A stretch of DNA of 64,000 nucleotides from the IMG/VR virus record IMGVR_UViG_3300000228_000004, positions 46,524 to 110,523 of that record, one strand, 5' to 3'. The DNA is from a virus. Positions within the stretch are counted from its first letter, which is position 1. The number at the start of each line of letters is the position of its first letter. The notes below the pieces were generated by a model, which did not search any database, was not told the origin of the DNA, and worked only from the letters and a program-made list of their open reading frames with translations. Below, piece by piece: positions 28,613-42,741 of the stretch. The position numbers and the translations under genes were made by a program.

Positions 28613-28928
28613 TGGTGGGCATGGCGGGTAACGATCCCGCGTCCAAGAATTTTTTCTGTTTTGAAATTAACCTTACGGTTGGCGATTGCCTACAAGTTTT
28701 TGATTTAATTTTTTACAAAAATTATAAAAATATGAAACGCATTGAAATGTTAATCTTGTTCGGTTAGTTCGTTTGGCAATGAAGTGAACTACTCTTCAAA
28801 GGATTAAGCTACTTGAACCATCCCTGTATAATTTATATTGTTTTCATCTATTTTTGTTTTGAGGTTTAACTTCTCCAAGTACTTGTTTCTACACATAATA
28901 AAACTCCTGTCGATACCATTTCACGCCC
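28613..28928 (-). ncRNA. ssrA: tmRNA; predicted tag (X)ENNINYTGMVQVA*
   Basis: 5' GGGCGTGAAATGGTATCGAC, 3' GGACGCGGGATCGTTACCCGCCATGCCCACCA, resume context AAAAATAGAT GAA...GTA GCT TAA. Confidence 0.88.
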
Positions 28929-31538: not shown

Positions 31539-31796
31539 CTATATTACGGGAAGTAGTGTTAATTTTCTTGTTTTAAACGGTAACTTTCTAGTAAGTACCT
31601 TCACTTTCTCTTTCGCCATTGATAAAGAAACTCCTACTCTTCCGGACATATCGAGGTCTTCAGGGTAAATACTGTGCGCTTCACCCGTAACTTGGACACC
31701 ATTTTTTAAAGTTAGTACGCAAATAGTTAATGTATCACCGACGCTGAAATATTTTTCTGATATAATCACTTGCTCAACCATTTCATTAGTCACCAT
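31539..31796 (-). CDS. Gp49/Sf6-66 family (Tad1-like) protein with frameshifted C-terminus
   Basis: TLTICVLTLKNG..VTGE; removing a TACT duplication near 31591-31598 restores ...EKVKVLESYRLKQEN*. Confidence 0.65.
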   Translation of the reverse strand: MVTNEMVEQVIISEKYFSVGDTLTICVLTLKNGVQVTGEAHSIYPEDLDMSGRVGVSLSMAKEKVKVLTRKLPFKTRKLTLLPVI

Positions 31797-31800
31797 GGTA

Positions 31801-33297
31801 TCACTCCCCTAAAGAAATAGCTTCTATTTCTTTTATAAGTGCATTTTTATCTTCCCATATTTTAGGGATTACTGATAACATATTTTCTGAAAACCCAGCA
31901 ACTTCTAAAACATCATGAGAAAGCTTCATTGGGGTCGCGCCACCATACCCCTGAAGGTTCCAAAATAGGAATTTTGTGTTCGGGCTTAATTTTTTGTAAT
32001 CAGTAACCATATCTCTAAAAGGTTTTCCGTGCCCGACTTGATTTTCTTGCATATCGGTGAATATCACAATCTTATCAACTTTGGTTTTTGTTTTTATCAA
32101 ATCAGTCATAGCCCCACCAAGGTCTGTACCGCCACCTTTGGTAATAGTCATTCTGATGAACTCCATAGGTGAACCATCTATTGAAATTTGTCTCGAATTG
32201 TCCGCCCAAAGATAAGCCAATGTTTTCTCTTTATCTAACCCACATAACATAGAAGCCATTAAAGTTTTACCAATCATAAACGGTGAAACTTTTTTGTATT
32301 CACATCCCATTGAACCAGATTCATCTAATAGGATGGCTACAGATTCACCTTCTTCGACAATTGGTATATTTTTTGAAGAGTATATGAACCCTTGTTCTAT
32401 AGCCTTCAAAAGTTTTTTATGTCTAAACATATCAATAGAATTTATGATTCTAACCTCATTATATGCGTACACGAATCTAAAAGGGAGTAATTTAGAATTT
32501 AACACGGCTTTTTCAGATGACAATAATTCACATAACATACCGAATGCTTCATCATCTATACCAGATTCAACCATATTCTTGATGTTCTTCAATGCAGCCA
32601 TATACCCCAATTTTCTTTCTGAAAGCATTGACTTGTAGAGAATAGCTCTTTCTTCACCAGTTGAACTAGCATTAACAGTTTGCGCAGTATTGATATTAGG
32701 GAGTTTGTTCTCTAACGCCATTTTAAACATCAATCGTTGTTCATCGTCTTTAGGTGTTGGGTGGGATATATTCACTAAATTGGAAACTTTCACAGAACCA
32801 TTACCAAAATACTTTTTCAGCTGATACGAGCCCCACTTTGTTTCCAAGGAAATCTTCACTGCTTTTCTTAGAGAGTTCGGGATCATCATATCTGGGTTTC
32901 TTGAATTCCATAACGCGACCATCTCAATCGCGTCATCTGGTCTAAGCATCGTTTTGTCTAACGCGTGCTTCATAAATGTTTCGCCTTTTACATTTTCCGC
33001 TAAAATGGTTCCAATAAAATGAGAAATAGAACGCAAATTACCAACTGTTCTAGCATAAACCATAGATTTGGCTAGAAATTCTGCGTGTTCTGGGTTATTA
33101 GTGATATACCCTTCAATTTTATCTAATCTTTCTTTTTCAGTTTCGTAAAACGAATCAGTTCCATTTAACATAGAATTGAGTATCACGGAAACAACTTCAC
33201 CTTTGAAATTATCCCTAGAGAATCCTGACATACCTGAATAATTCACATCATCACGGTTTTTTGGGTTTGTTTTGATTTTTAAATTGAATTTTGACAT
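31801..33297 (-). CDS. rsr: Ro60/TROVE-domain RNA-binding protein with vWA domain
   Basis: FYE, YAR..GNLRS, RPDD, YQLKKY, HPTP, LGYMAALKN, SKLLPFRF..AY, DESGSM MIDAS, GGTD, IFTDMQ. Confidence 0.93.
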   Translation of the reverse strand: MSKFNLKIKTNPKNRDDVNYSGMSGFSRDNFKGEVVSVILNSMLNGTDSFYETEKERLDKIEGYITNNPEHAEFLAKSMVYARTVGNLRSISHFIGTILAENVKGETFMKHALDKTMLRPDDAIEMVALWNSRNPDMMIPNSLRKAVKISLETKWGSYQLKKYFGNGSVKVSNLVNISHPTPKDDEQRLMFKMALENKLPNINTAQTVNASSTGEERAILYKSMLSERKLGYMAALKNIKNMVESGIDDEAFGMLCELLSSEKAVLNSKLLPFRFVYAYNEVRIINSIDMFRHKKLLKAIEQGFIYSSKNIPIVEEGESVAILLDESGSMGCEYKKVSPFMIGKTLMASMLCGLDKEKTLAYLWADNSRQISIDGSPMEFIRMTITKGGGTDLGGAMTDLIKTKTKVDKIVIFTDMQENQVGHGKPFRDMVTDYKKLSPNTKFLFWNLQGYGGATPMKLSHDVLEVAGFSENMLSVIPKIWEDKNALIKEIEAISLGE

Positions 33298-33358
33298 TAT
33301 TTTACCTTAGTTCTAATTGAGTATTAGACGATTGAAATCGCACCGCATTGTCGGACGA

Positions 33359-33539
33359 ATGAGTTTTTTAATTATTGTTAATATGGATGAAATTGAAAAA
33401 GAGTATTTTTTGCGTCCTACCATTAGACGACCTCACTTCTCGAAGATAGCGAGGGAAGGATTCGAACCAACATTTCATGCTCCCAATGCGATGTAATCTT
33501 TCCCTGTAATCCCATATTAACAATAATTAAAAAACTCAT
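33359..33539 (-). ncRNA. yrlA: Y RNA-like element 1 (YrlA-like, permuted tRNA domain)
   Basis: 28-bp perfect terminal stem; inside, T-arm GGTTCGAATCC, closed acceptor-like stem, then D-arm GTCTAATGGTAGGAC. Confidence 0.8.
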
Positions 33540-33659
33540 CTTTAAATAGATGAAATCGACTAAGAAGGTTAGAGCGGTGGTCAACACGGTGAATATAACT
33601 CTTATTATTTTCAAGTAATGATGTATTCTTAGTCTGTAATTCTATTTAAAGATGAGTTT
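33532..33659 (-). ncRNA. Y RNA-like element 2
   Basis: 19-bp perfect terminal stem and the shared ATTACAG..AGAATACATC / GTCGATTTCATC motif. Confidence 0.7.
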
Positions 33660-33661
33660 GG

Positions 33662-33903
33662 TATCAAAAGTTGAGATGAAAGCATTAAAGAGTTGACTCC
33701 TGGAAGCCTTTTAACCGAGTGAATTACCAATTCGGCGATTCTCTTTTACCCAAGAGAACAGGGGTATCTACCCATTTATCCGCCAATCTGTCCGCTTCAA
33801 CCTATTTCAAATGAAGAGCGATTTAGCAACGCTAACAGATACAGCCCAACGCGTTTCTCTTAATTAATGATGTAATCTTTAACTGTAATTCTCACTTTTG
33901 ATA
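33662..33903 (-). ncRNA. Y RNA-like element 3 (large multi-hairpin domain with degenerate T/AS/D module)
   Basis: Shared stem motif; GGGTAGATACCC, TTCTCTT..AAGAGAA, GCCGAATTGGTA. Confidence 0.7.
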
Positions 33904-33926
33904 TTTAAAGAACATAGAGCATATGC

Positions 33927-34010
33927 TCAAAAAAGAAAGATAAAATCGACAGAGAGCAGTTTAATTCAATATTGTGATGTAATCTCTGGCTGTAATTCTT
34001 TCTTTTTTGA
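33927..34010 (-). ncRNA. Y RNA-like element 4 (minimal)
   Basis: 14-bp perfect terminal stem, shared motif, about 20-nt loop. Confidence 0.7.
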
Positions 34011-34022
34011 ACTTATGTAATA

Positions 34023-34054
34023 ATTATATAGTTTTAAACTTAAAATTAACTTAA
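34023..34054 (-). promoter_or_regulatory. promoter of the Y-RNA/Ro60 operon
   Basis: TTAAGTTAATTTTAAGTTTAAAACTATATAAT, about 12 nt upstream of element 4. Confidence 0.6.
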
Positions 34055-34220
34055 TTAATTGTGGTCGGGTGGTATTGAACCGACTGGTCTATATGCGCGA
34101 AATGAAAACCTTCAAAGCACCTACACAATTCCAACATTCAATAAATACCGTATTTGATTAATTATTTAATCACCTTATTATGTATACAAGTAGTATACCT
34201 AACTTTCACTTAAAAACACC

Positions 34221-34427
34221 TTAAATCCAAACCTTTTTAAAAATGTTCTTCATTTTTTTAAACAAATCTGGGGTATTGAAGTCTGTTCGATATTCAACCC
34301 CTATTTTATTCTCGCTCAAACCAACTTCAAAGTCAGATTTTTTCATAGAACTTTCGTTTATTATTTTTTCAGTATCGAATATTTCTGATAATTGAGAACC
34401 TTTTATATTCAGGGTATGTTTTTTCAT
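34221..34427 (-). CDS. hypothetical protein
   Basis: Overlaps the groEL stop codon. Confidence 0.45.
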   Translation of the reverse strand: MKKHTLNIKGSQLSEIFDTEKIINESSMKKSDFEVGLSENKIGVEYRTDFNTPDLFKKMKNIFKKVWI

Positions 34428-36031
34428 GCCTTATCCTCAAATATAGCAACTTCTGTTGTTAATAACATACCAGCAATAGAACTAGCATTAATAAGGGCAA
34501 TTCTTTCGACCTTCAATGGGTCAATGACCCCTGAGTCAAAAAAGTTTTCAATTTTCCCAGTAGAAGCATTAAAACCGTACTCCCACTGATTTTCGCCCCC
34601 GTAATCCATAACATCTGAAGATATATCCAATATTTCATCATAAGAATATCCAGCATTATCTAAAATCGTTTTGAAAGGGGATAATATAGATTCAAATATG
34701 ACTTGTTTCCCTCTTTCTTCATCTGAAAGTTCTCTTTCTAATGACCCTAAACCATCCATTAGGGACAATGAAGCATGGAAGAACGCGCTACCTCCCCCAA
34801 CTACTATCCCCTCTGAAATTGCCGATTTAGTGGCTTCAACGGCATCATCAAATCTATCTTTTTTCTCTGACATTTCAAATTCTGTTTGCGCGCCAACTTT
34901 TATGGTCGCAGCCCCTCCAGATAATCTAGAAATCCTTGTTTTTATTTGGTTTTTGAGTTCCCCATCATCCATATTCTGAACTTGAAGTTTGAGACCATCA
35001 ATCGTCAAATTTATGATTTCTTTATCTCCGCCACCATTCACTATAACGGTGCTCTGTGAATTTATGATAACCTTCTTAGCCTGCCCTAGATCATTTAAAT
35101 CAACTGATGCTAGAACTTTACCAGAACTATCGGAAACCAACGAAGCCCCTGTGGTTAAACAAATATCTTTCAAGAGTTCTTCTTTCATAGAACCAAAACC
35201 AGGAGCTTTCACGGGGTACACTTCGAGTATCCCCCTCATTTTATTGACTACGATAGATGAAAGAGCTTCGCCCTCTATCTCGTCAGCTATGATAAGCAAA
35301 GGTCTTTGGGTTTTCTGAACCTTTTCTAGTATAGGGAGAATATTTATCAATTGTGAAATCTTTCCGTCGGTCACTAAAATGAACGGGTCTTCAAGTTCGG
35401 CTCTGTTTCTTTCTTGGTTAGTGATGAAATGTGGGGAAAGAAACCCTCTTCTAAATTCCATTCCTTCCGTTATTACGAGCTCATCTTTAACCCCAGTGTT
35501 TTCTTCAACTGTTATAATACCATCTTTCCCGACTGCTAGGATGGCGTCAGAAATTATTTTTCCTATTTCAATATCACCATTCGCGGATATAGTAGCAACA
35601 TTGATAATATCCCCATCTTTTATTTCTCTTGATTTTTCTATTATGAAATTTATGACATCTTTAACCGCTTGATCCATCCCTCTTTTCAATGAATTTGGGT
35701 CTACTCCTTCATCAACCGCACTTAAACCATTTTTGAAAATTTCATTGACGAGCACAGTAGATGTAGTTGTCCCATCACCAGCTTCGAACGCGGTATTTGA
35801 GGAAACCTCTTTCACGATTTGGGCACCCATGTCTTGTAGTTTATCTTTTAAAAAAACTTGTTGGGCGACACTGACCCCATCTTTCGTGAGGTATGGTCTT
35901 TTCCCTTCTTCGTGGATGAGTACATTTCTCCCTTTCGGACCCATAGTTACTTTAACCGCGTCACAAAGGCTTTCTATACCCTGAGCTATTTTATTCCTAG
36001 CACTTTCCCCGAAAACTATTTCTTTAGACAT
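34424..36031 (-). CDS. groEL: chaperonin GroEL
   Basis: VKVTMGPKGRNV, TKDGVSVA, AGDGTTT, KAPGFG, GVIDPLKV; no GGM tail. Confidence 0.97.
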   Translation of the reverse strand: MSKEIVFGESARNKIAQGIESLCDAVKVTMGPKGRNVLIHEEGKRPYLTKDGVSVAQQVFLKDKLQDMGAQIVKEVSSNTAFEAGDGTTTSTVLVNEIFKNGLSAVDEGVDPNSLKRGMDQAVKDVINFIIEKSREIKDGDIINVATISANGDIEIGKIISDAILAVGKDGIITVEENTGVKDELVITEGMEFRRGFLSPHFITNQERNRAELEDPFILVTDGKISQLINILPILEKVQKTQRPLLIIADEIEGEALSSIVVNKMRGILEVYPVKAPGFGSMKEELLKDICLTTGASLVSDSSGKVLASVDLNDLGQAKKVIINSQSTVIVNGGGDKEIINLTIDGLKLQVQNMDDGELKNQIKTRISRLSGGAATIKVGAQTEFEMSEKKDRFDDAVEATKSAISEGIVVGGGSAFFHASLSLMDGLGSLERELSDEERGKQVIFESILSPFKTILDNAGYSYDEILDISSDVMDYGGENQWEYGFNASTGKIENFFDSGVIDPLKVERIALINASSIAGMLLTTEVAIFEDKA

Positions 36032-36556: not shown

Positions 36557-36644
36557 TGGTGCACCCACTCGGACTCGAACCGAGACTCTCTTTCGAGAAG
36601 TGGATTTTAAGTCCACTGCGGCTACCTGATTACGCCATGAGTGC
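36557..36644 (-). tRNA. tRNA-Leu(TAA)
   Basis: Cloverleaf with long variable arm, GTGGA-CTTAAAA-TCCAC, CCA end. Confidence 0.92.
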
Positions 36645-36976
36645 ATAGTAACTTTCACATTGATTGGTATTCTTTTCTATGCCCAAATACCTTGTAAAAT
36701 GTAAGTATGTTCTATGGGCAACTTACAAGTTTTTGAAAATTATACTTTACTAACCTACTTATCAGTATTTGCAACTACTTCAAAGCGTAACCACACAGGA
36801 GTCCAGGACAGGTTTATTTTTTCAGTGTCTATTCAAACACTCTGCTCTTGATATTACAGGTATAATTTTTATTTTAAGAGTTTTATCTCTTGAGTCTGAT
36901 AGTGTTTGGGTATAAACCCCTCTCGCATAACTCATAAAAATCTTCAATGGAAACTTTTATGAATTATTTTTAATTT

Positions 36977-37051
36977 TGGTTGCTCGTTGTGGATTTGAAC
37001 CACATTATAAGAGCTTATGAGACTCCCCCAGATACCTACCTGCCACCAGCT
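36977..37051 (-). tRNA. tRNA-Met(CAT), initiator-like or degenerate
   Basis: CTCATAA loop, GGTTCAAATCC T-arm, CCA; 1:72 mismatch plus one internal acceptor mismatch. Confidence 0.65.
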
Positions 37052-37297
37052 ATAATATAATCTAACTTTAGTTTCCTGTTACACTCAGTATTTAGACCAA
37101 GTTCAGTGGTATTTCAACCATTGTTAGATGTTGTTCTCAATTTTCTCGAGTATTCGCGTTACCTACATGATACGAAATAAATCACGATTGTTTTTGATTT
37201 ACAACAAACCTTTAACACTTGAAACACCTATGTGATAGAAATATTCTGTAGTATAATAGGCGTTTCAAGTACTAAATTGTTTGAACTTCATATTTTT

Positions 37298-37372
37298 TGG
37301 TTGGTCGTATAGGATTCGAACCTACAACCATTCCGTTATGAGCGGAATGCTCTACCATTGAGCTAACGACCA
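37298..37372 (-). tRNA. tRNA-Met/Ile2(CAT)
   Basis: Clean cloverleaf, TTCCG-CTCATAA-CGGAA, CCA. Confidence 0.92.
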
Positions 37373-37994: not shown

Positions 37995-38027
37995 ATTATA
38001 CCGTAAGTAAGCTTAAAACTCACTTAA
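37995..38027 (-). promoter_or_regulatory. early promoter
   Basis: TTAAGTGAGTTTTAAGCTTACTTACGGTATAAT. Confidence 0.8.
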
Positions 38028-38038
38028 ACTCGGTAATT

Positions 38039-38169
38039 AACAACTAAGTTTCATTAAGTTCTTTTTCCTTCCGAACGCTCACGGTTGCCCACACGGACAC
38101 ATACCTCTCTTGGGCATTACCTCGGTCTTACTTCTCAAGAGTATAAGAACTTAATGAAACTTAGTTGTT
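38039..38169 (-). ncRNA. candidate small RNA closed by a 25-bp perfect stem
   Basis: AACAACTAAGTTTCATTAAGTTCTT and its reverse complement; starts about 10 nt below a TATAAT. Confidence 0.6.
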
Positions 38170-38179
38170 TATTACTTAT

Positions 38180-38212
38180 ATTATACCCTAAGTAATCTTA
38201 AAGCTCACTTAA
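38180..38212 (-). promoter_or_regulatory. early promoter
   Basis: TTAAGTGAGCTTTAAGATTACTTAGGGTATAAT. Confidence 0.8.
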
Positions 38213-38236
38213 AATATTGTATATATTTCATAAAAA

Positions 38237-38314
38237 TAACTCTAAAAAATTATCTTGCCACGGTCATTATAGAGGCTTCGGAGGTTTTAACCTCTAGATA
38301 TTTTTTTAGAGTTA
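38237..38314 (-). ncRNA. candidate hairpin-closed small RNA
   Basis: TAACTCTAAAAAA.TATCT stem around a GC-richer core, immediately 3' of the tRNA-like RNA. Confidence 0.45.
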
Positions 38315-38315
38315 A

Positions 38316-38402
38316 TGGTGAGTCTGGGTGGAGTTGAACCACCATCTCCTTTTGGGAGCACACGCATTAAGATATCCTTTTACAGACACCCATTCTAGAC
38401 TC
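38316..38402 (-). ncRNA. tRNA-like RNA without a canonical anticodon arm
   Basis: Acceptor GAGTCT/AGACTC-ACCA, T-arm GGTGG-TTCAACT-CCACC, hairpin CTCC-CAAAA-GGAG; no 5-bp/7-nt anticodon arm. Confidence 0.6.
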
Positions 38403-38448
38403 ATAATTTACAGAACTTAAAGGTCTAATGCCACCATTTATATGTTAT

Positions 38449-38481
38449 ATTATACCGTAAGTAAGCTTAAAGCTCGCTTAA
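38449..38481 (-). promoter_or_regulatory. early promoter
   Basis: TTAAGCGAGCTTTAAGCTTACTTACGGTATAAT. Confidence 0.8.
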
Positions 38482-41433: not shown

Positions 41434-41510
41434 CGGTACTCCATGAGGGACTCGAACCCCCAATCCAACAGGTCGAAACCGATTGCTCTATACATTTGAG
41501 CCAATGAAGT
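41434..41510 (-). tRNA. tRNA-Arg(TCG), weak anticodon stem
   Basis: Acceptor ACTTCAT/ATGGAGT, loop TTTCGAC, T-arm GGTTCGAGTCC; ends CCG. Confidence 0.65.
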
Positions 41511-41517
41511 ATATATT

Positions 41518-41593
41518 CGGGGTAGATAATGGGAATTGAACCCAGATAACTCGTGCCACAGACAAGGATACTTACCATTGTACTATATCCACC
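41518..41593 (-). tRNA. tRNA-His(GTG)
   Basis: G-1, CTTGT-CTGTGGC-ACGAG, GGGTTCAATTCCC. Confidence 0.85.
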
Positions 41594-41602
41594 ATACATC
41601 GT

Positions 41603-41803
41603 TTATCTTTTTAAGGTAAACCCTTTATTCTTATCTTTAATTTTTATTTCTACTCTATCGTTGAAATGAACTACTCTGAAATCAATATTTTCTTTCAGAC
41701 CTTTATTTTTCAAAACTGTTATGAGTTGCTTTTGCTTAAATGTCATAATTGTCCCCCGTCTTATCATCATTTTCCTTATATTATTTTTGAGCGAGTGTAA
41801 CAC
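41603..41803 (-). CDS. hypothetical protein
   Basis: Short ORF; start uncertain. Confidence 0.35.
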   Translation of the reverse strand: MLHSLKNNIRKMMIRRGTIMTFKQKQLITVLKNKGLKENIDFRVVHFNDRVEIKIKDKNKGFTLKR

Positions 41804-41810
41804 GGATGAG

Positions 41811-42053
41811 CTACGCGCGCAAGTTTTGCATGAAGTTCAATACTTCTATTGTCAATTTATTCCCGTCACCATAAGGAAAGTTTATCTTACCTACTTTAGT
41901 GTGACTAGGTTTATATTCGAAATCATAAGAAAACTCATAAATATCGTAAGAACACATTTCACCATTACTTGGAATTCCGGATGGTTTCGTACGGTGAACG
42001 CCGATCTTTGTGAATGGTAAATTATCATTTACCCTTATTTCTATGAACATCAT
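41811..42053 (-). CDS. hypothetical protein
   Basis: ORF with AAGG RBS inside the tRNA island. Confidence 0.5.
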   Translation of the reverse strand: MMFIEIRVNDNLPFTKIGVHRTKPSGIPSNGEMCSYDIYEFSYDFEYKPSHTKVGKINFPYGDGNKLTIEVLNFMQNLRA

Positions 42054-42187
42054 TTTAAACCTTTTTATACTTTTATACGAGATAGAGGGTAAAACCCCTC
42101 CTCTTCAAATACTTGATTGTTATGATTTCAGTTTCCTTGTTGAACAAGTACTCACACCATTTACCACGGGAAGGTAATCAATACAAA

Positions 42188-42263
42188 TGGCAGCCCATAG
42201 AGGGATTTGAACCCCCGACCGCTTCATTACAAGTGAAGTGCTCTACCACTGAGCTATGTGGGC
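42188..42263 (-). tRNA. tRNA-Thr(TGT)
   Basis: CTTCA-CTTGTAA-TGAAG, canonical D and T arms. Confidence 0.9.
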
Positions 42264-42311
42264 ATTTGTGCGGTGTTATACATCTACGCAAAGAAGTAAC
42301 CCAATTTATTT

Positions 42312-42386
42312 TGGTTGACGCAGAAGGATTCGAACCTCCAACCTCTTGGTTCAAAACCAAGCATTCTGCCGTTGAATTATACGTCA
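42312..42386 (-). tRNA. tRNA-Gln(TTG)
   Basis: CTTGG-TTTTGAA-CCAAG, U1-A72, CCA. Confidence 0.88.
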
Positions 42387-42389
42387 ATA

Positions 42390-42476
42390 TGGAGGAAGAT
42401 GTGGGTAACGACCCCACTCAGGTTTTACCCAGACTCCGTTTAGCAAACGGGCACATTACCTTTCTGTCAATCTTCC
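42390..42476 (-). tRNA. tRNA-Ser(GCT)
   Basis: CCGTT-TGCTA-AACGG region with GCT anticodon, long variable arm, atypical T-loop GTCGTTA. Confidence 0.82.
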
Positions 42477-42486
42477 ATTTTTGAAC

Positions 42487-42563
42487 TGGAGCCTGATATC
42501 CGATTTGAACGGATAATCTTTCGCTTTGCAGGCGAGTGCTTTGCCAACATAAACTATAGGGGA
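42487..42563 (-). pseudogene. tRNA-Cys(GCA) with unpaired acceptor stem
   Basis: CTGCAAA loop, T-arm and U73-CCA intact, but the 5' strand does not pair with ATCAGGC. Confidence 0.6.
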
Positions 42564-42574
42564 ATAAACTTTTT

Positions 42575-42648
42575 TGGTCCTCGGTGAAAGTATCGATCTT
42601 TCGTCTAACGCTTATCGGGCGATCGTTCTGCCTTTGAACTAACCGAGG
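42575..42648 (-). tRNA. tRNA-Ile(GAT), non-canonical
   Basis: Acceptor CCTCGGT/ACCGAGG-ACCA, loop CCGATAA (C33), T-loop ATCGATA. Confidence 0.75.
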
Positions 42649-42649
42649 A

Positions 42650-42741
42650 TGGAGGAAGATAAGGGATTCGAACCCTTGGAGCGTTTAACGACCCTCTGGT
42701 TTTCAAGACCAGCGCACTCGACCAGACTATGCGAATCTTCC
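42650..42741 (-). tRNA. tRNA-Ser(TGA)
   Basis: CTGGT-CTTGAAA-ACCAG, long variable arm, CCA. Confidence 0.92.

What the first reader, a model, noticed from the sequence alone, without database searches (positions are those of the whole stretch)
31539..34054. Phage Ro60 operon led by a tandem array of four Y-RNA-like modules with a common stem and different payloads
Seen: between a promoter (34023-34054) and the Ro60 gene lie four consecutive elements. Each is closed by its own long stem (28, 19, ~14 and 14 bp). Each carries the same internal motif, 5'-ATTACAG-helix-GA(T/A)TACATC ... helix'-(GA/AA/GC)TTT(C/T)ATC-3'. The helix between the conserved loops covaries (GGGAAAGA/TCTTTTTC, GACTAAGAA/TTCTTAGTC, GTTAAAGA/TCTTTAAT, CAGAGA/TCTCTG). 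The distal domains differ: a permuted tRNA (T, acceptor, D order), a ~55-nt loop, a ~170-nt multi-hairpin with a second degenerate T/AS/D unit, and a ~20-nt loop. Known: bacterial YrlA has this permuted tRNA domain, and Y RNAs tether Ro60 to effectors such as PNPase. Inference: the phage makes a set of interchangeable RNA adaptors that programme one Ro60 for several partners, or tRNA decoys for host anticodon nucleases. A Tad1-like gene follows in the same operon, hinting at an anti-defence role.
Basis: partly seen in the sequence, partly recalled or inferred. Interest (0 to 1): 0.9.

Follow-up and report, generated by a model that had tools for sequence, protein, structure and literature searches.

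The report
Phage Ro60 gene with four Y-RNAs
An uncultured phage carries four small structured RNA genes in a row, in front of its gene for the ring-shaped RNA-binding protein Ro60; all four share one conserved "handle" and each carries a different insert, which makes them a diverged, multi-copy version of the known Ro60 partner RNAs (Y RNAs) that the standard RNA catalogue misses.

Summary
Four back-to-back RNA modules lie on the minus strand (33358-34017), between a phage-specific promoter motif (34023-34054) and a Ro60/TROVE gene (33297-31801).

- **Shared core:** each module has a long closing stem, an irregular conserved helix (5' GAAUUAYA opposite 3' GMUUUYAUC), a covarying 8-bp helix and UUACAUCG. 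A variable insert follows.
- **Specificity:** a covariance model built here finds exactly these four in the 110-kb phage record. In related loci it finds 61 more, all on the Ro60 strand, 1-6 per locus.
- **Covariation:** it is strong. 92-93% of cells pair, against 57-59% when shuffled, and all 19 pairs show compensatory changes.
- **Module 1:** it carries a permuted tRNA-like domain (T arm, acceptor-like stem, D arm).
- **Relation to YrlA:** Rfam YrlA does not hit the window. It gives sub-threshold full-length hits (33-42 bits; cut-off 69) on sister modules, and the aligned architecture is the same. The canonical GNCGAA motif is absent.
- **Downstream ORF:** it belongs to the Acb4 family (PF13876), not Tad1.

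Verdict: a new variant of a known kind, a diverged YrlA/YrlB-type Y-RNA array. Ro60 binding, processing and partner choice are inferred, not shown. This scan has reported similar Ro60 plus "handle RNA" arrays on other phage DNA before.

The parts
34023..34054 (-). Phage promoter-like motif (TTAAGNNANNTTTAAGNTTA-N-TATAAT) directly upstream of the array
   Evidence: Four copies in the window, all on the minus strand, 0 expected. The other three (37995-38481) precede ORF-free structured units. The generic sigma-70 scan does not list it.
33920..34017 (-). Module 4 (first transcribed): closing stem of 14 uninterrupted bp (19 with one mismatch), conserved handle, 20-nt insert (short-loop, YrlB-like class)
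   Evidence: CM R1 76.6 bits, E 5e-13, core 33929-34008; fold; stem count. This module was in the training alignment.
33662..33903 (-). Module 3: closing stem of about 13 bp with a bulge, handle, 177-nt multi-hairpin insert with no relatives in the sample
   Evidence: CM R1 48.7 bits, E 3e-7, core 33665-33900, not in the training set; fold; no similar insert among 62 modules.
33532..33659 (-). Module 2: 18-19-bp closing stem, handle (AUACAUC variant), 54-nt insert
   Evidence: CM R1 74.7 bits, E 1e-12; fold z = -8.6. This module was in the training alignment.
33358..33540 (-). Module 1: closing stem of up to 29 bp, handle, 87-nt insert that is a permuted tRNA-like domain (YrlA type)
   Evidence: CM R1 58 bits, E 3e-9, core 33376-33522, not in the training set; fold z = -5.7; alignment with 11 sister tRNA-like modules.
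33413..33471 (-). tRNA-like domain of module 1: T arm (loop UUCGAAU), 7-bp acceptor-like stem closed by a small hairpin, D arm (loop with GG)
   Evidence: In alignment A4 the T stem is 91% paired and the acceptor-like stem 98.6% paired, with compensatory changes at all 7 pairs.
31801..33297 (-). Ro60/TROVE protein gene (498 aa): HEAT-repeat ring plus vWA domain with a MIDAS motif
   Evidence: Pfam TROVE 41.5 bits, cut-off 23. Family profile against PDB: phiLo Ro60 E 1e-20, Xenopus Ro60 2e-8, Deinococcus Rsr 2e-5. AlphaFold model pLDDT 85; the top 13 listed Foldseek matches are all Ro60/TROVE entries, TM 0.57-0.70. D325, S327, S329, T391 and D415 are invariant.
31539..31796 (-). 85-aa ORF of Pfam family PF13876 (Acb4-type nucleotide-signal sponge family); it starts 4 nt after the Ro60 stop codon
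   Evidence: PF13876 43.3 bits, cut-off 27; phrog_322, unknown function. The family is named Acb4 in bioRxiv 10.1101/2024.12.30.630793. It is found near Ro60 only in L010 and L011.

Best explanation
The four modules are Y RNAs: the non-coding partner RNAs of the phage's own Ro60 protein. They belong to a diverged branch of the bacterial and phage YrlA/YrlB family.

Shown:
- A conserved handle is kept across dozens of phage loci. It consists of the closing stem, an irregular helix (G-C, A-U, bulged A, U-A, U.Y, A-U, Y.U, A-U, then a GM bulge), an 8-bp helix and UUACAUCG.
- The modules always lie on the Ro60 strand and nearly always within 2 kb of the gene.
- The architecture aligns part for part with YrlA.

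Inferred:
- The array is transcribed from the promoter motif at 34023-34054 as one precursor, probably continuing into the Ro60 and Acb4-like genes. Neighbouring modules are only 0-16 nt apart and leave no room for promoters of their own.
- Host nucleases, most plausibly RNase III acting on the roughly 19-bp stems, release four RNAs of about 98, 242, 128 and 183 nt. The phage record encodes no RNase III.
- Each RNA docks its handle on the outer face of the Ro60 ring, at the position where YrlA and vertebrate Y RNAs carry their Ro-binding motif, and displays its insert.
- The tRNA-like insert of module 1 recruits a host tRNA-binding or 3'-exonuclease partner (PNPase in Deinococcus, Salmonella and Thermus phage phiLo). 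This would retarget decay or quality control of structured RNA during infection.
- The other inserts gate the ring or tether it to other partners.
For: - **Motif and fold:** four copies against 0 expected; array z = -7.6.
- **Covariation:** in a MAFFT alignment of 21 short modules, 92.5% of cells pair against 59% when shuffled and about 50% when slid. All 19 pairs show compensatory changes, including the closing stem, which was never used to select modules. The same holds on 54 distinct model hits.
- **Selection control:** 45% of 5' anchors have a perfect 8/8 partner, against 2.7% with swapped helices.
- **Specificity of model R1:** it finds exactly 4 hits in the window and in the whole 110-kb record; modules 1 and 3 were not in the training set.
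- **Linkage to Ro60:** there are 61 hits in 73 Ro60 loci, all on the Ro60 strand, 1-6 per locus. An RNA-first scan of IMG/VR listed 80 loci with the 5' motif. Only 4 hold real modules: 3 are next to Ro60 and the fourth sits at a contig end. A contig binned to a Sulfuricurvum MAG has a 55%-identical Ro60 with 2 modules upstream.
- **Relation to YrlA:** the YrlA model aligns full length (33-42 bits, E down to 3e-6) to sister tRNA-like modules. It maps outer stem, GAAU loop, helix, YUAY and T/AS/D onto the parts seen here.
- **The handle is structured:** the cross-loop pair is U-A in 43 sequences, C-G in 10 and U-G in 1.
- **The protein is a Ro60:**
- **Precedent:** Y RNAs lie upstream of rsr and are processed from one precursor in M. 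smegmatis (PMC4201824). Two Yrl RNAs upstream of phage phiLo Ro60 bind it and host PNPase (PMC12135203).
Against: - There are no expression, processing or binding data.
- The canonical Rsr motif GNCGAA(N)G is absent from all four modules.
- Rfam YrlA does not reach its cut-off anywhere, and does not hit the window at all.
- Twelve of 36 loci with a Ro60 at least 37% identical show no module within the DNA held, also with model filters off. Several of these have short flanks.
- In L016, L035 and L045 the modules lie 0.1-2 kb downstream of Ro60.
- The arrays sit in tRNA/ncRNA-rich regions, so part of the linkage could be regional.
- Modules 3 and 4 folded alone are only weakly better than shuffles (z about -1.8 and -1.9).
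Confidence: 0.75

Rival explanations
1. The modules are cis-acting parts of the Ro60 mRNA leader. They would be stabilising or processing stems, or autoregulatory Ro60 binding sites that set how much Ro60 is made, rather than free trans-acting RNAs.
For: They are always on the Ro60 strand and mostly 40-2000 nt upstream. No terminator-like site lies between module 1 and the Ro60 start. There is no room for internal promoters.
Against: In L016, L035 and L045 the modules lie downstream of Ro60, behind other ORFs. Copy number ranges from 1 to 6. Inserts include full tRNA mimics with 7-bp acceptor-like stems, which a leader does not need. Known Y RNAs are also co-transcribed with rsr and then processed (PMC4201824).
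Confidence: 0.1
2. The modules are Ro60-independent RNAs. They would be tRNA mimics or decoys, or partners of another protein such as a host tRNA enzyme or a defence nuclease, that merely sit in the phage's tRNA/ncRNA region next to Ro60.
For: The arrays lie beside tRNA clusters in several loci. The same phage has other promoter-driven ncRNA cassettes with long stems. An Acb4-family anti-defence ORF follows Ro60.
Against: The conserved part is the handle, not the tRNA-like insert. Three of the four window modules lack a tRNA-like domain. The handle occupies the YrlA position where Rsr binding was mapped (PMC4201824). Model hits occur only beside Ro60 genes of this clade, and nowhere else in the 110-kb record.
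Confidence: 0.1
3. The modules are a repeat without RNA function: inverted-repeat DNA sites, terminator-like hairpins or remnants of a mobile element.
For: The stems are long and AT-rich, and the copies are tandem.
Against: The stems differ in sequence but keep pairing through compensatory changes. Strand bias is strict: 67 of 67 anchors and 61 of 61 model hits lie on the Ro60 strand. The single-stranded motifs are conserved. The tRNA-like domains covary.
Confidence: 0.03

Closest known systems
YrlA / YrlB Y RNAs of bacteria and mycobacteriophages (Rfam RF02553; Chen et al. 2014, PMC4201824)
   Same: They are encoded next to and on the same strand as Ro60, often several per locus and co-transcribed. 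The 5' and 3' ends form a long stem. An internal loop or irregular helix is followed by a 7-8-bp helix, then YUAY (here UUAC), then V, T arm, acceptor-like stem and D arm in permuted order. Companion RNAs have short loops (YrlB-like). The YrlA model aligns full length to sister modules.
   Different: GNCGAA(N)G is replaced by GAAUUAYA; only GAAU is shared. UUACAUCG and GMUUUYAUC are conserved in addition. Scores stay far below the Rfam cut-off, and the window's module 1 is not hit at all. Arrays reach 4-6 modules, sometimes with 2-3 tRNA-like members. Closing stems are long, with a median of 19 bp.
Thermus phage phiLo Ro60 with Yrl1/Yrl2 (PMC12135203; PDB 9KOP, 9L5Y)
   Same: It is the closest solved relative of the protein (profile E 1e-20, TM 0.62-0.70). 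It is a phage Ro60 with Y-like RNAs upstream of the gene, and the phage has no PNPase of its own (for this phage).
   Different: phiLo has two RNAs, found through CGAA motifs. Here there are four RNAs without that motif, and the proteins are only about 18% identical. Binding and the PNPase complex were shown for phiLo, not here.
Vertebrate and Deinococcus Y RNAs (Ro60-Y RNA complex, PDB 1YVP)
   Same: Several Y RNAs serve one Ro60. The Ro site is a conserved, bulged helix in the stem formed by the RNA's two ends, and the loop domain is variable.
   Different: The sequence motif differs (GGUCCGA in vertebrates). The vertebrate RNAs have separate genes and no tRNA-like insert.
Dictyostelid Class I RNAs (Rfam RF01414; PMC7919456)
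   Same: Both have a short terminal stem followed by a conserved motif and then a variable remainder. From my own memory, not printed in the text I read, the Class I motif contains UUACAG.
   Different: The Rfam model finds nothing in this phage record at E<=10. There is no second helix, no 3' motif and no Ro60 link. I treat the likeness as superficial.

Membership tests
YrlA (Rfam RF02553) | Score at or above the Rfam gathering cut-off (69 bits) | tested here: not met
   There is no hit in the window at gathering level, or at E<=10 on 33250-34250. The search of the phage's own genome hits only tRNA genes. Sister modules score 33-42 bits, and none of 40 loci reaches the cut-off.
YrlA (Chen et al. 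2014) | GNCGAA(N0-1)G motif near the 5' end | tested here: not met
   A regular-expression search finds none in any of the four modules. The aligned position holds GAAUUAYA, which shares only GAAU.
YrlA (Chen et al. 2014) | tRNA-like domain in the order V, T arm, acceptor-like stem, D arm, preceded by YUAY | tested here: met
   Module 1 and 11 sister modules align. The T stem is 91% paired and the acceptor-like stem 98.6% paired, with compensatory changes. UUAC is nearly invariant. Modules 2-4 lack the domain and are YrlB-like at best.
YrlA (Chen et al. 2014) | Encoded within 4 kb of a Ro60 gene on the same strand | tested here: met
   The modules lie 61-720 nt upstream of the Ro60 start codon, on the same strand. 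All 61 hits in related loci are on the Ro60 strand.
Y RNA (functional class) | Bound and stabilised by Ro60 in vivo | not testable with these tools
   No RNA run holds the stretch. This needs a pull-down or gel shift.
Ro60 / TROVE protein | TROVE HEAT-repeat ring plus C-terminal vWA domain with a MIDAS motif | tested here: met
   Pfam TROVE scores above its cut-off. The top 13 listed Foldseek matches are all Ro60/TROVE entries. DxSxS, T and D are invariant in 30 homologues. vWA_Ro60 scores 22 bits, just under its 27.7 cut-off.
Acb4 (PF13876) | Match to Pfam PF13876 above its cut-off | tested here: met
   43.3 bits against a cut-off of 27. The family is equated with Acb4 in bioRxiv 10.1101/2024.12.30.630793. 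Ligand-binding residues and sponge activity were not tested.
Tad1 | Sequence or fold similarity to Tad1 | tested here: inconclusive
   A Pfam scan to E 10 lists only PF13876 and two noise hits. There is no PDB sequence match at E<=1. I did not fold the ORF, and I do not know whether the library holds a Tad1 model. Nothing supports the label.
Dictyostelid Class I RNA (RF01414) | Match to the Rfam model | tested here: not met
   No match at E<=10 in the whole phage record.

The most novel reading that the evidence does not exclude
One phage Ro60 ring is programmed by a co-transcribed library of modular Y RNAs. A fixed handle docks on Ro60, while interchangeable payloads (full tRNA mimics, T-arm-only units, hairpins and unique large domains) aim the particle at different host partners or act as decoys for tRNA-directed defence nucleases. 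This would make the array a phage counter-defence or RNA-decay retargeting device. The handle would be a second, independently readable Ro60 recognition code that co-evolved with this Ro60 clade.
Probability: 0.25. Interest if true: 0.8.

Novelty: new variant of a known kind. Interest (0 to 1): 0.58.

Why it matters
Y RNAs are the least understood half of the Ro60 particle, and bacterial ones are known mainly through a single Rfam model. This locus belongs to a large, well-covarying family that the model misses. It has a different sequence at the presumed Ro60 docking site, and arrays of up to six RNAs whose payloads fall into recurring classes.

That gives a natural mutagenesis series for two questions: what Ro60 reads in a Y RNA, and what the variable domains do. 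Because cultured Vibrio phages (pv27, Va1, phiKT1024) carry a one-module version, the questions can be tested at the bench. It also shows that phage annotation pipelines call spurious small ORFs inside these RNAs.

Tried and rejected
- **Rfam:** searches at gathering level and at E<=10 gave no family for the region, only noise such as plant microRNA models.
- **Single-protein scan of IMG/VR:** it found nothing. An alignment was needed.
- **Pattern-only scan of IMG/VR with the 5' motif:** matches were mostly chance; 76 of the 80 listed loci have no real module.
- **Model R1 with filters off:** on 10 close Ro60 loci without modules it found nothing convincing.
- **Sequencing runs:** no RNA holder is listed. 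DNA contigs from four other runs are identical over the parts they cover, so they give no population-level compensatory changes.
- **Generic sigma-70 and terminator scan:** counts are no better than shuffles, and no terminator was found.
- **Dictyostelid Class I RNA, a lead from earlier notes:** no match.
- **RNase III, RtcB and RNase PH/PNPase families:** absent from the 71%-complete record.
- **'Tad1-like' label:** replaced by Acb4 family.
- **Review PMC10870794:** not held.
Full report
**1. What is there**

Read on the minus strand, the stretch 34054 to 31539 holds the following, in order:
- a promoter-like motif;
- four structured, ORF-free modules;
- a 498-aa gene;
- an 85-aa ORF that starts 4 nt after the 498-aa gene's stop codon.

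The motif ATTACAG-N7-[TA]TACATC occurs exactly four times in the 64-kb window. All copies are on the minus strand, with none expected by chance. The 691-nt array folds far better than shuffles (z = -7.6). In the minimum-free-energy fold of the whole array, modules 4, 2 and 1 appear as separate stem-enclosed units. Folded alone, module 2 gives z = -8.6, module 1 gives -5.7, and modules 3 and 4 give about -1.8 and -1.9.

**2. The protein is a Ro60**

- Pfam TROVE scores 41.5 bits against a cut-off of 23.
- A profile of 30 homologues matches Thermus phage phiLo Ro60 over its full length (E 1e-20). It also matches Xenopus Ro60 and Deinococcus Rsr.
- An AlphaFold model has mean pLDDT 85. Its top 13 listed Foldseek matches in the PDB are all Ro60/TROVE entries, with TM 0.57-0.70.
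- The vWA MIDAS residues are invariant in the family.

**3. The module family**

I collected homologous loci from several sources:
- Vibrio phages of about 190 kb;
- IMG/VR;
- 66 metagenome contigs;
- one contig binned to a Sulfuricurvum MAG from a sulfidic cave.

The 5' motif recurs in 67 places in these loci, all on the Ro60 strand and none on the other. Using only the two conserved single-stranded motifs as anchors, 45% of anchors have a perfectly complementary 8-nt partner in front of a downstream 3' motif. With helices swapped between modules the figure is 2.7%.

A MAFFT alignment of 21 short modules gives this core:
- closing stem;
- 5' GAAUUAYA;
- 8-bp helix;
- UUACAUCG;
- insert;
- 3' strand of the helix;
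- GMUUUYAUC;
- closing stem.

On that alignment 92.5% of cells pair, against 59% after shuffling and about 50% after sliding. All 19 pairs show compensatory changes. This includes the 11 closing-stem pairs, which played no part in choosing the sequences.

**4. A covariance model**

Model R1 finds exactly the four modules in the window. It recovers modules 1 and 3, which it was not trained on, at E 3e-9 and 3e-7. It finds nothing else in the whole 110.5-kb phage record.

In 73 Ro60 loci it finds 61 hits, all on the Ro60 strand. There are 1-6 per locus, mostly 40-2000 nt upstream and in three loci downstream. Pair statistics hold on the 54 distinct hits: 93% paired against 57%.

Modules accompany Ro60 genes that are at least 37% identical to the window's. 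Loci with 24-30% identity have none, apart from one weak hit in L045. Twelve of 36 closer loci show none in the DNA held, several of them with short flanks.

Starting from the RNA side gives the same picture. Of 80 listed IMG/VR loci with the bare 5' motif, only 4 contain real modules. Three of these are next to Ro60 and the fourth sits at a contig end.

**5. Fine structure of the handle**

The two "loops" are not loose. Position 4 of the 5' motif and position 7 of the 3' motif covary. The pair is U-A in 43 sequences, C-G in 10 and U-G in 1 (no permutation of 2000 reached the observed value). Both pair types occur within single arrays.

Read with the invariant letters, the element is an irregular helix:
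- G-C;
- A-U;
- a bulged A;
- U-A;
- U.Y;
- A-U;
- Y.U;
- A-U;
- a two-base GM bulge;
- the 8-bp helix.

A conserved bulged helix in the stem is what Ro60 reads in vertebrate Y RNAs, according to the texts cited in PMC4201824 and PMC12135203.

Closing stems have a median of 19 bp, with a main mode at 18-24 bp. Neighbouring modules are often only 0-17 nt apart, which argues for one precursor that is cut. In the window, the 29-bp stem of module 1 shares 9 nt with the stem of module 2.

**6. Payloads**

Inserts fall into classes:
- Full tRNA-like inserts of 84-100 nt. The window's module 1 belongs here.
- A conserved class of about 64 nt with a T arm.
- Short loops of 15-29 nt. Module 4 belongs here.
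- A class of about 40 nt.
- Unique larger inserts. Modules 2 (54 nt) and 3 (177 nt) belong here.

In 12 aligned tRNA-like modules the T stem is 91% paired. The 7-bp acceptor-like stem is 98.6% paired, with compensatory changes at every pair. The D arm carries the usual AGYUNGGUAGAGC-type sequence. The D-stem columns are misaligned by gaps and score only 65%.

The T stem of module 1 has two U.U mismatches. Module 3 has a hairpin, a 7-bp hairpin and a D-like arm in the right order, but no canonical T loop and no model hit.

**7. Relation to the known family**

Rfam YrlA does not hit the window and reaches its cut-off in none of 40 loci. It does give significant full-length sub-threshold hits on sister tRNA-like modules (33-42 bits, E 3e-6 to 7e-4).

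The printed alignment maps the YrlA parts onto the parts seen here as follows:

| YrlA part | Part seen here |
|---|---|
| outer stem | closing stem |
| loop of the GNCGAAUG motif | GAAUUAYA |
| 7-bp helix | 8-bp helix |
| CUAC | UUAC |
| T arm, acceptor-like stem, D arm | T arm, acceptor-like stem, D arm |
| 3' loop | GAUUUYAUC |

The family is therefore a diverged homologue of YrlA/YrlB, with an altered sequence at the presumed Ro60 site. GNCGAA(N)G is absent from all four window modules.

Multiple Y RNAs per Ro60, co-transcription upstream of rsr, and phage Ro60 with two upstream Y-like RNAs that bind host PNPase are all published (PMC4201824, PMC12135203). Four to six modules with this handle were not described in the papers I could search. 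The scan's own earlier notes report comparable arrays in other phages. The Dictyostelium Class I lead from those notes fails here.

**8. Surroundings**

The promoter motif at 34023-34054 is one of four copies in the window. The other three drive ORF-free structured units at 37.9-38.5 kb.

The 85-aa ORF is PF13876, the Acb4 anti-CBASS sponge family. It is not Tad1, and it travels with Ro60 in only two sister loci. An anti-defence link is therefore a hint at most.

The record, which is 71% complete, has no RNase III, RtcB or PNPase and has one RNA ligase outside the window. Any processing enzyme or exonuclease partner would therefore be the host's.

No RNA run holds the stretch. DNA contigs from other biofilm and soil runs are identical.

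**9. Verdict**

Binding, processing and the "several partners" idea remain inferences. It is a new variant of a known kind. It is interesting to RNA and phage biologists and testable in cultured Vibrio phages, but it is not a new category.

Noticed in passing
window 28613-28928 (-): A phage-encoded tmRNA, only just above the Rfam cut-off (50.1 bits against 47).
   Followed up: no
window 37995-38481 (-): Three further copies of the promoter motif TTAAGNNANNTTTAAGNTTA-N-TATAAT. Each precedes an ORF-free structured unit, including a 25-bp perfect stem and a tRNA-like piece. None carries the Y-RNA handle: model R1 has no hit there.
   Followed up: partly
window 36557-37372 and 41435-42741 (-): Clusters of tRNA genes (8 by ARAGORN, 9 by Rfam) on the same strand as the array. 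Sister arrays also sit beside tRNA clusters (L005, L010, L014, L018, L035).
   Followed up: no
L001:3196-3345 (Vibrio phage pv27, CDS0151): An annotated 'hypothetical protein' lies wholly inside the single Y-RNA module (L001:3094-3318) upstream of the phage's Ro60 gene. It is probably a spurious ORF call.
   Followed up: partly
L018:500-655, L010:1497-1654, L010:2273-2423: In three sister tRNA-like modules the acceptor-like 3' strand is followed directly by NCCA (CCCA, ACCA, ACCA). This recalls M. smegmatis YrlA, which is cut by RNase P and carries CCA. The window's module 1 has no such CCA.
   Followed up: no
L010:2133-2255, L016:5266-5391, L021:2212-2334, L035:6012-6135, L108:13528-13652: A recurrent payload of about 64 nt, with a canonical T arm followed by a conserved UAUNGAAGC..UGCC block (75% mean column identity). 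It is absent from the window's array.
   Followed up: partly
L074:1905-2108, L056:2375-2438, L044:2227-2432: Beside distant Ro60 genes (24-30% identity), partial tRNA-model hits that lack the acceptor ends (model positions about 4-67) lie immediately upstream of Ro60. They may be another kind of tRNA-like partner RNA.
   Followed up: no
window 33532-33540: Nine bases belong both to the 3' strand of module 2's stem and to the 5' strand of module 1's 29-bp stem. The two stems compete, or one is trimmed after cleavage.
   Followed up: partly
window 34424-36031 (-) and L004:74-1615: A GroEL-type chaperonin gene lies just upstream of the array, and is also present upstream in the sister contig L004 (62% identity).
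   Followed up: no
L197 (contig of a Sulfuricurvum MAG from a sulfidic cave): A 7.4-kb contig binned with a Sulfuricurvum genome carries a 55%-identical Ro60 with two modules upstream. The runs that hold the window are biofilm, soil and cave metagenomes. This hints at a Campylobacterota host.
   Followed up: partly
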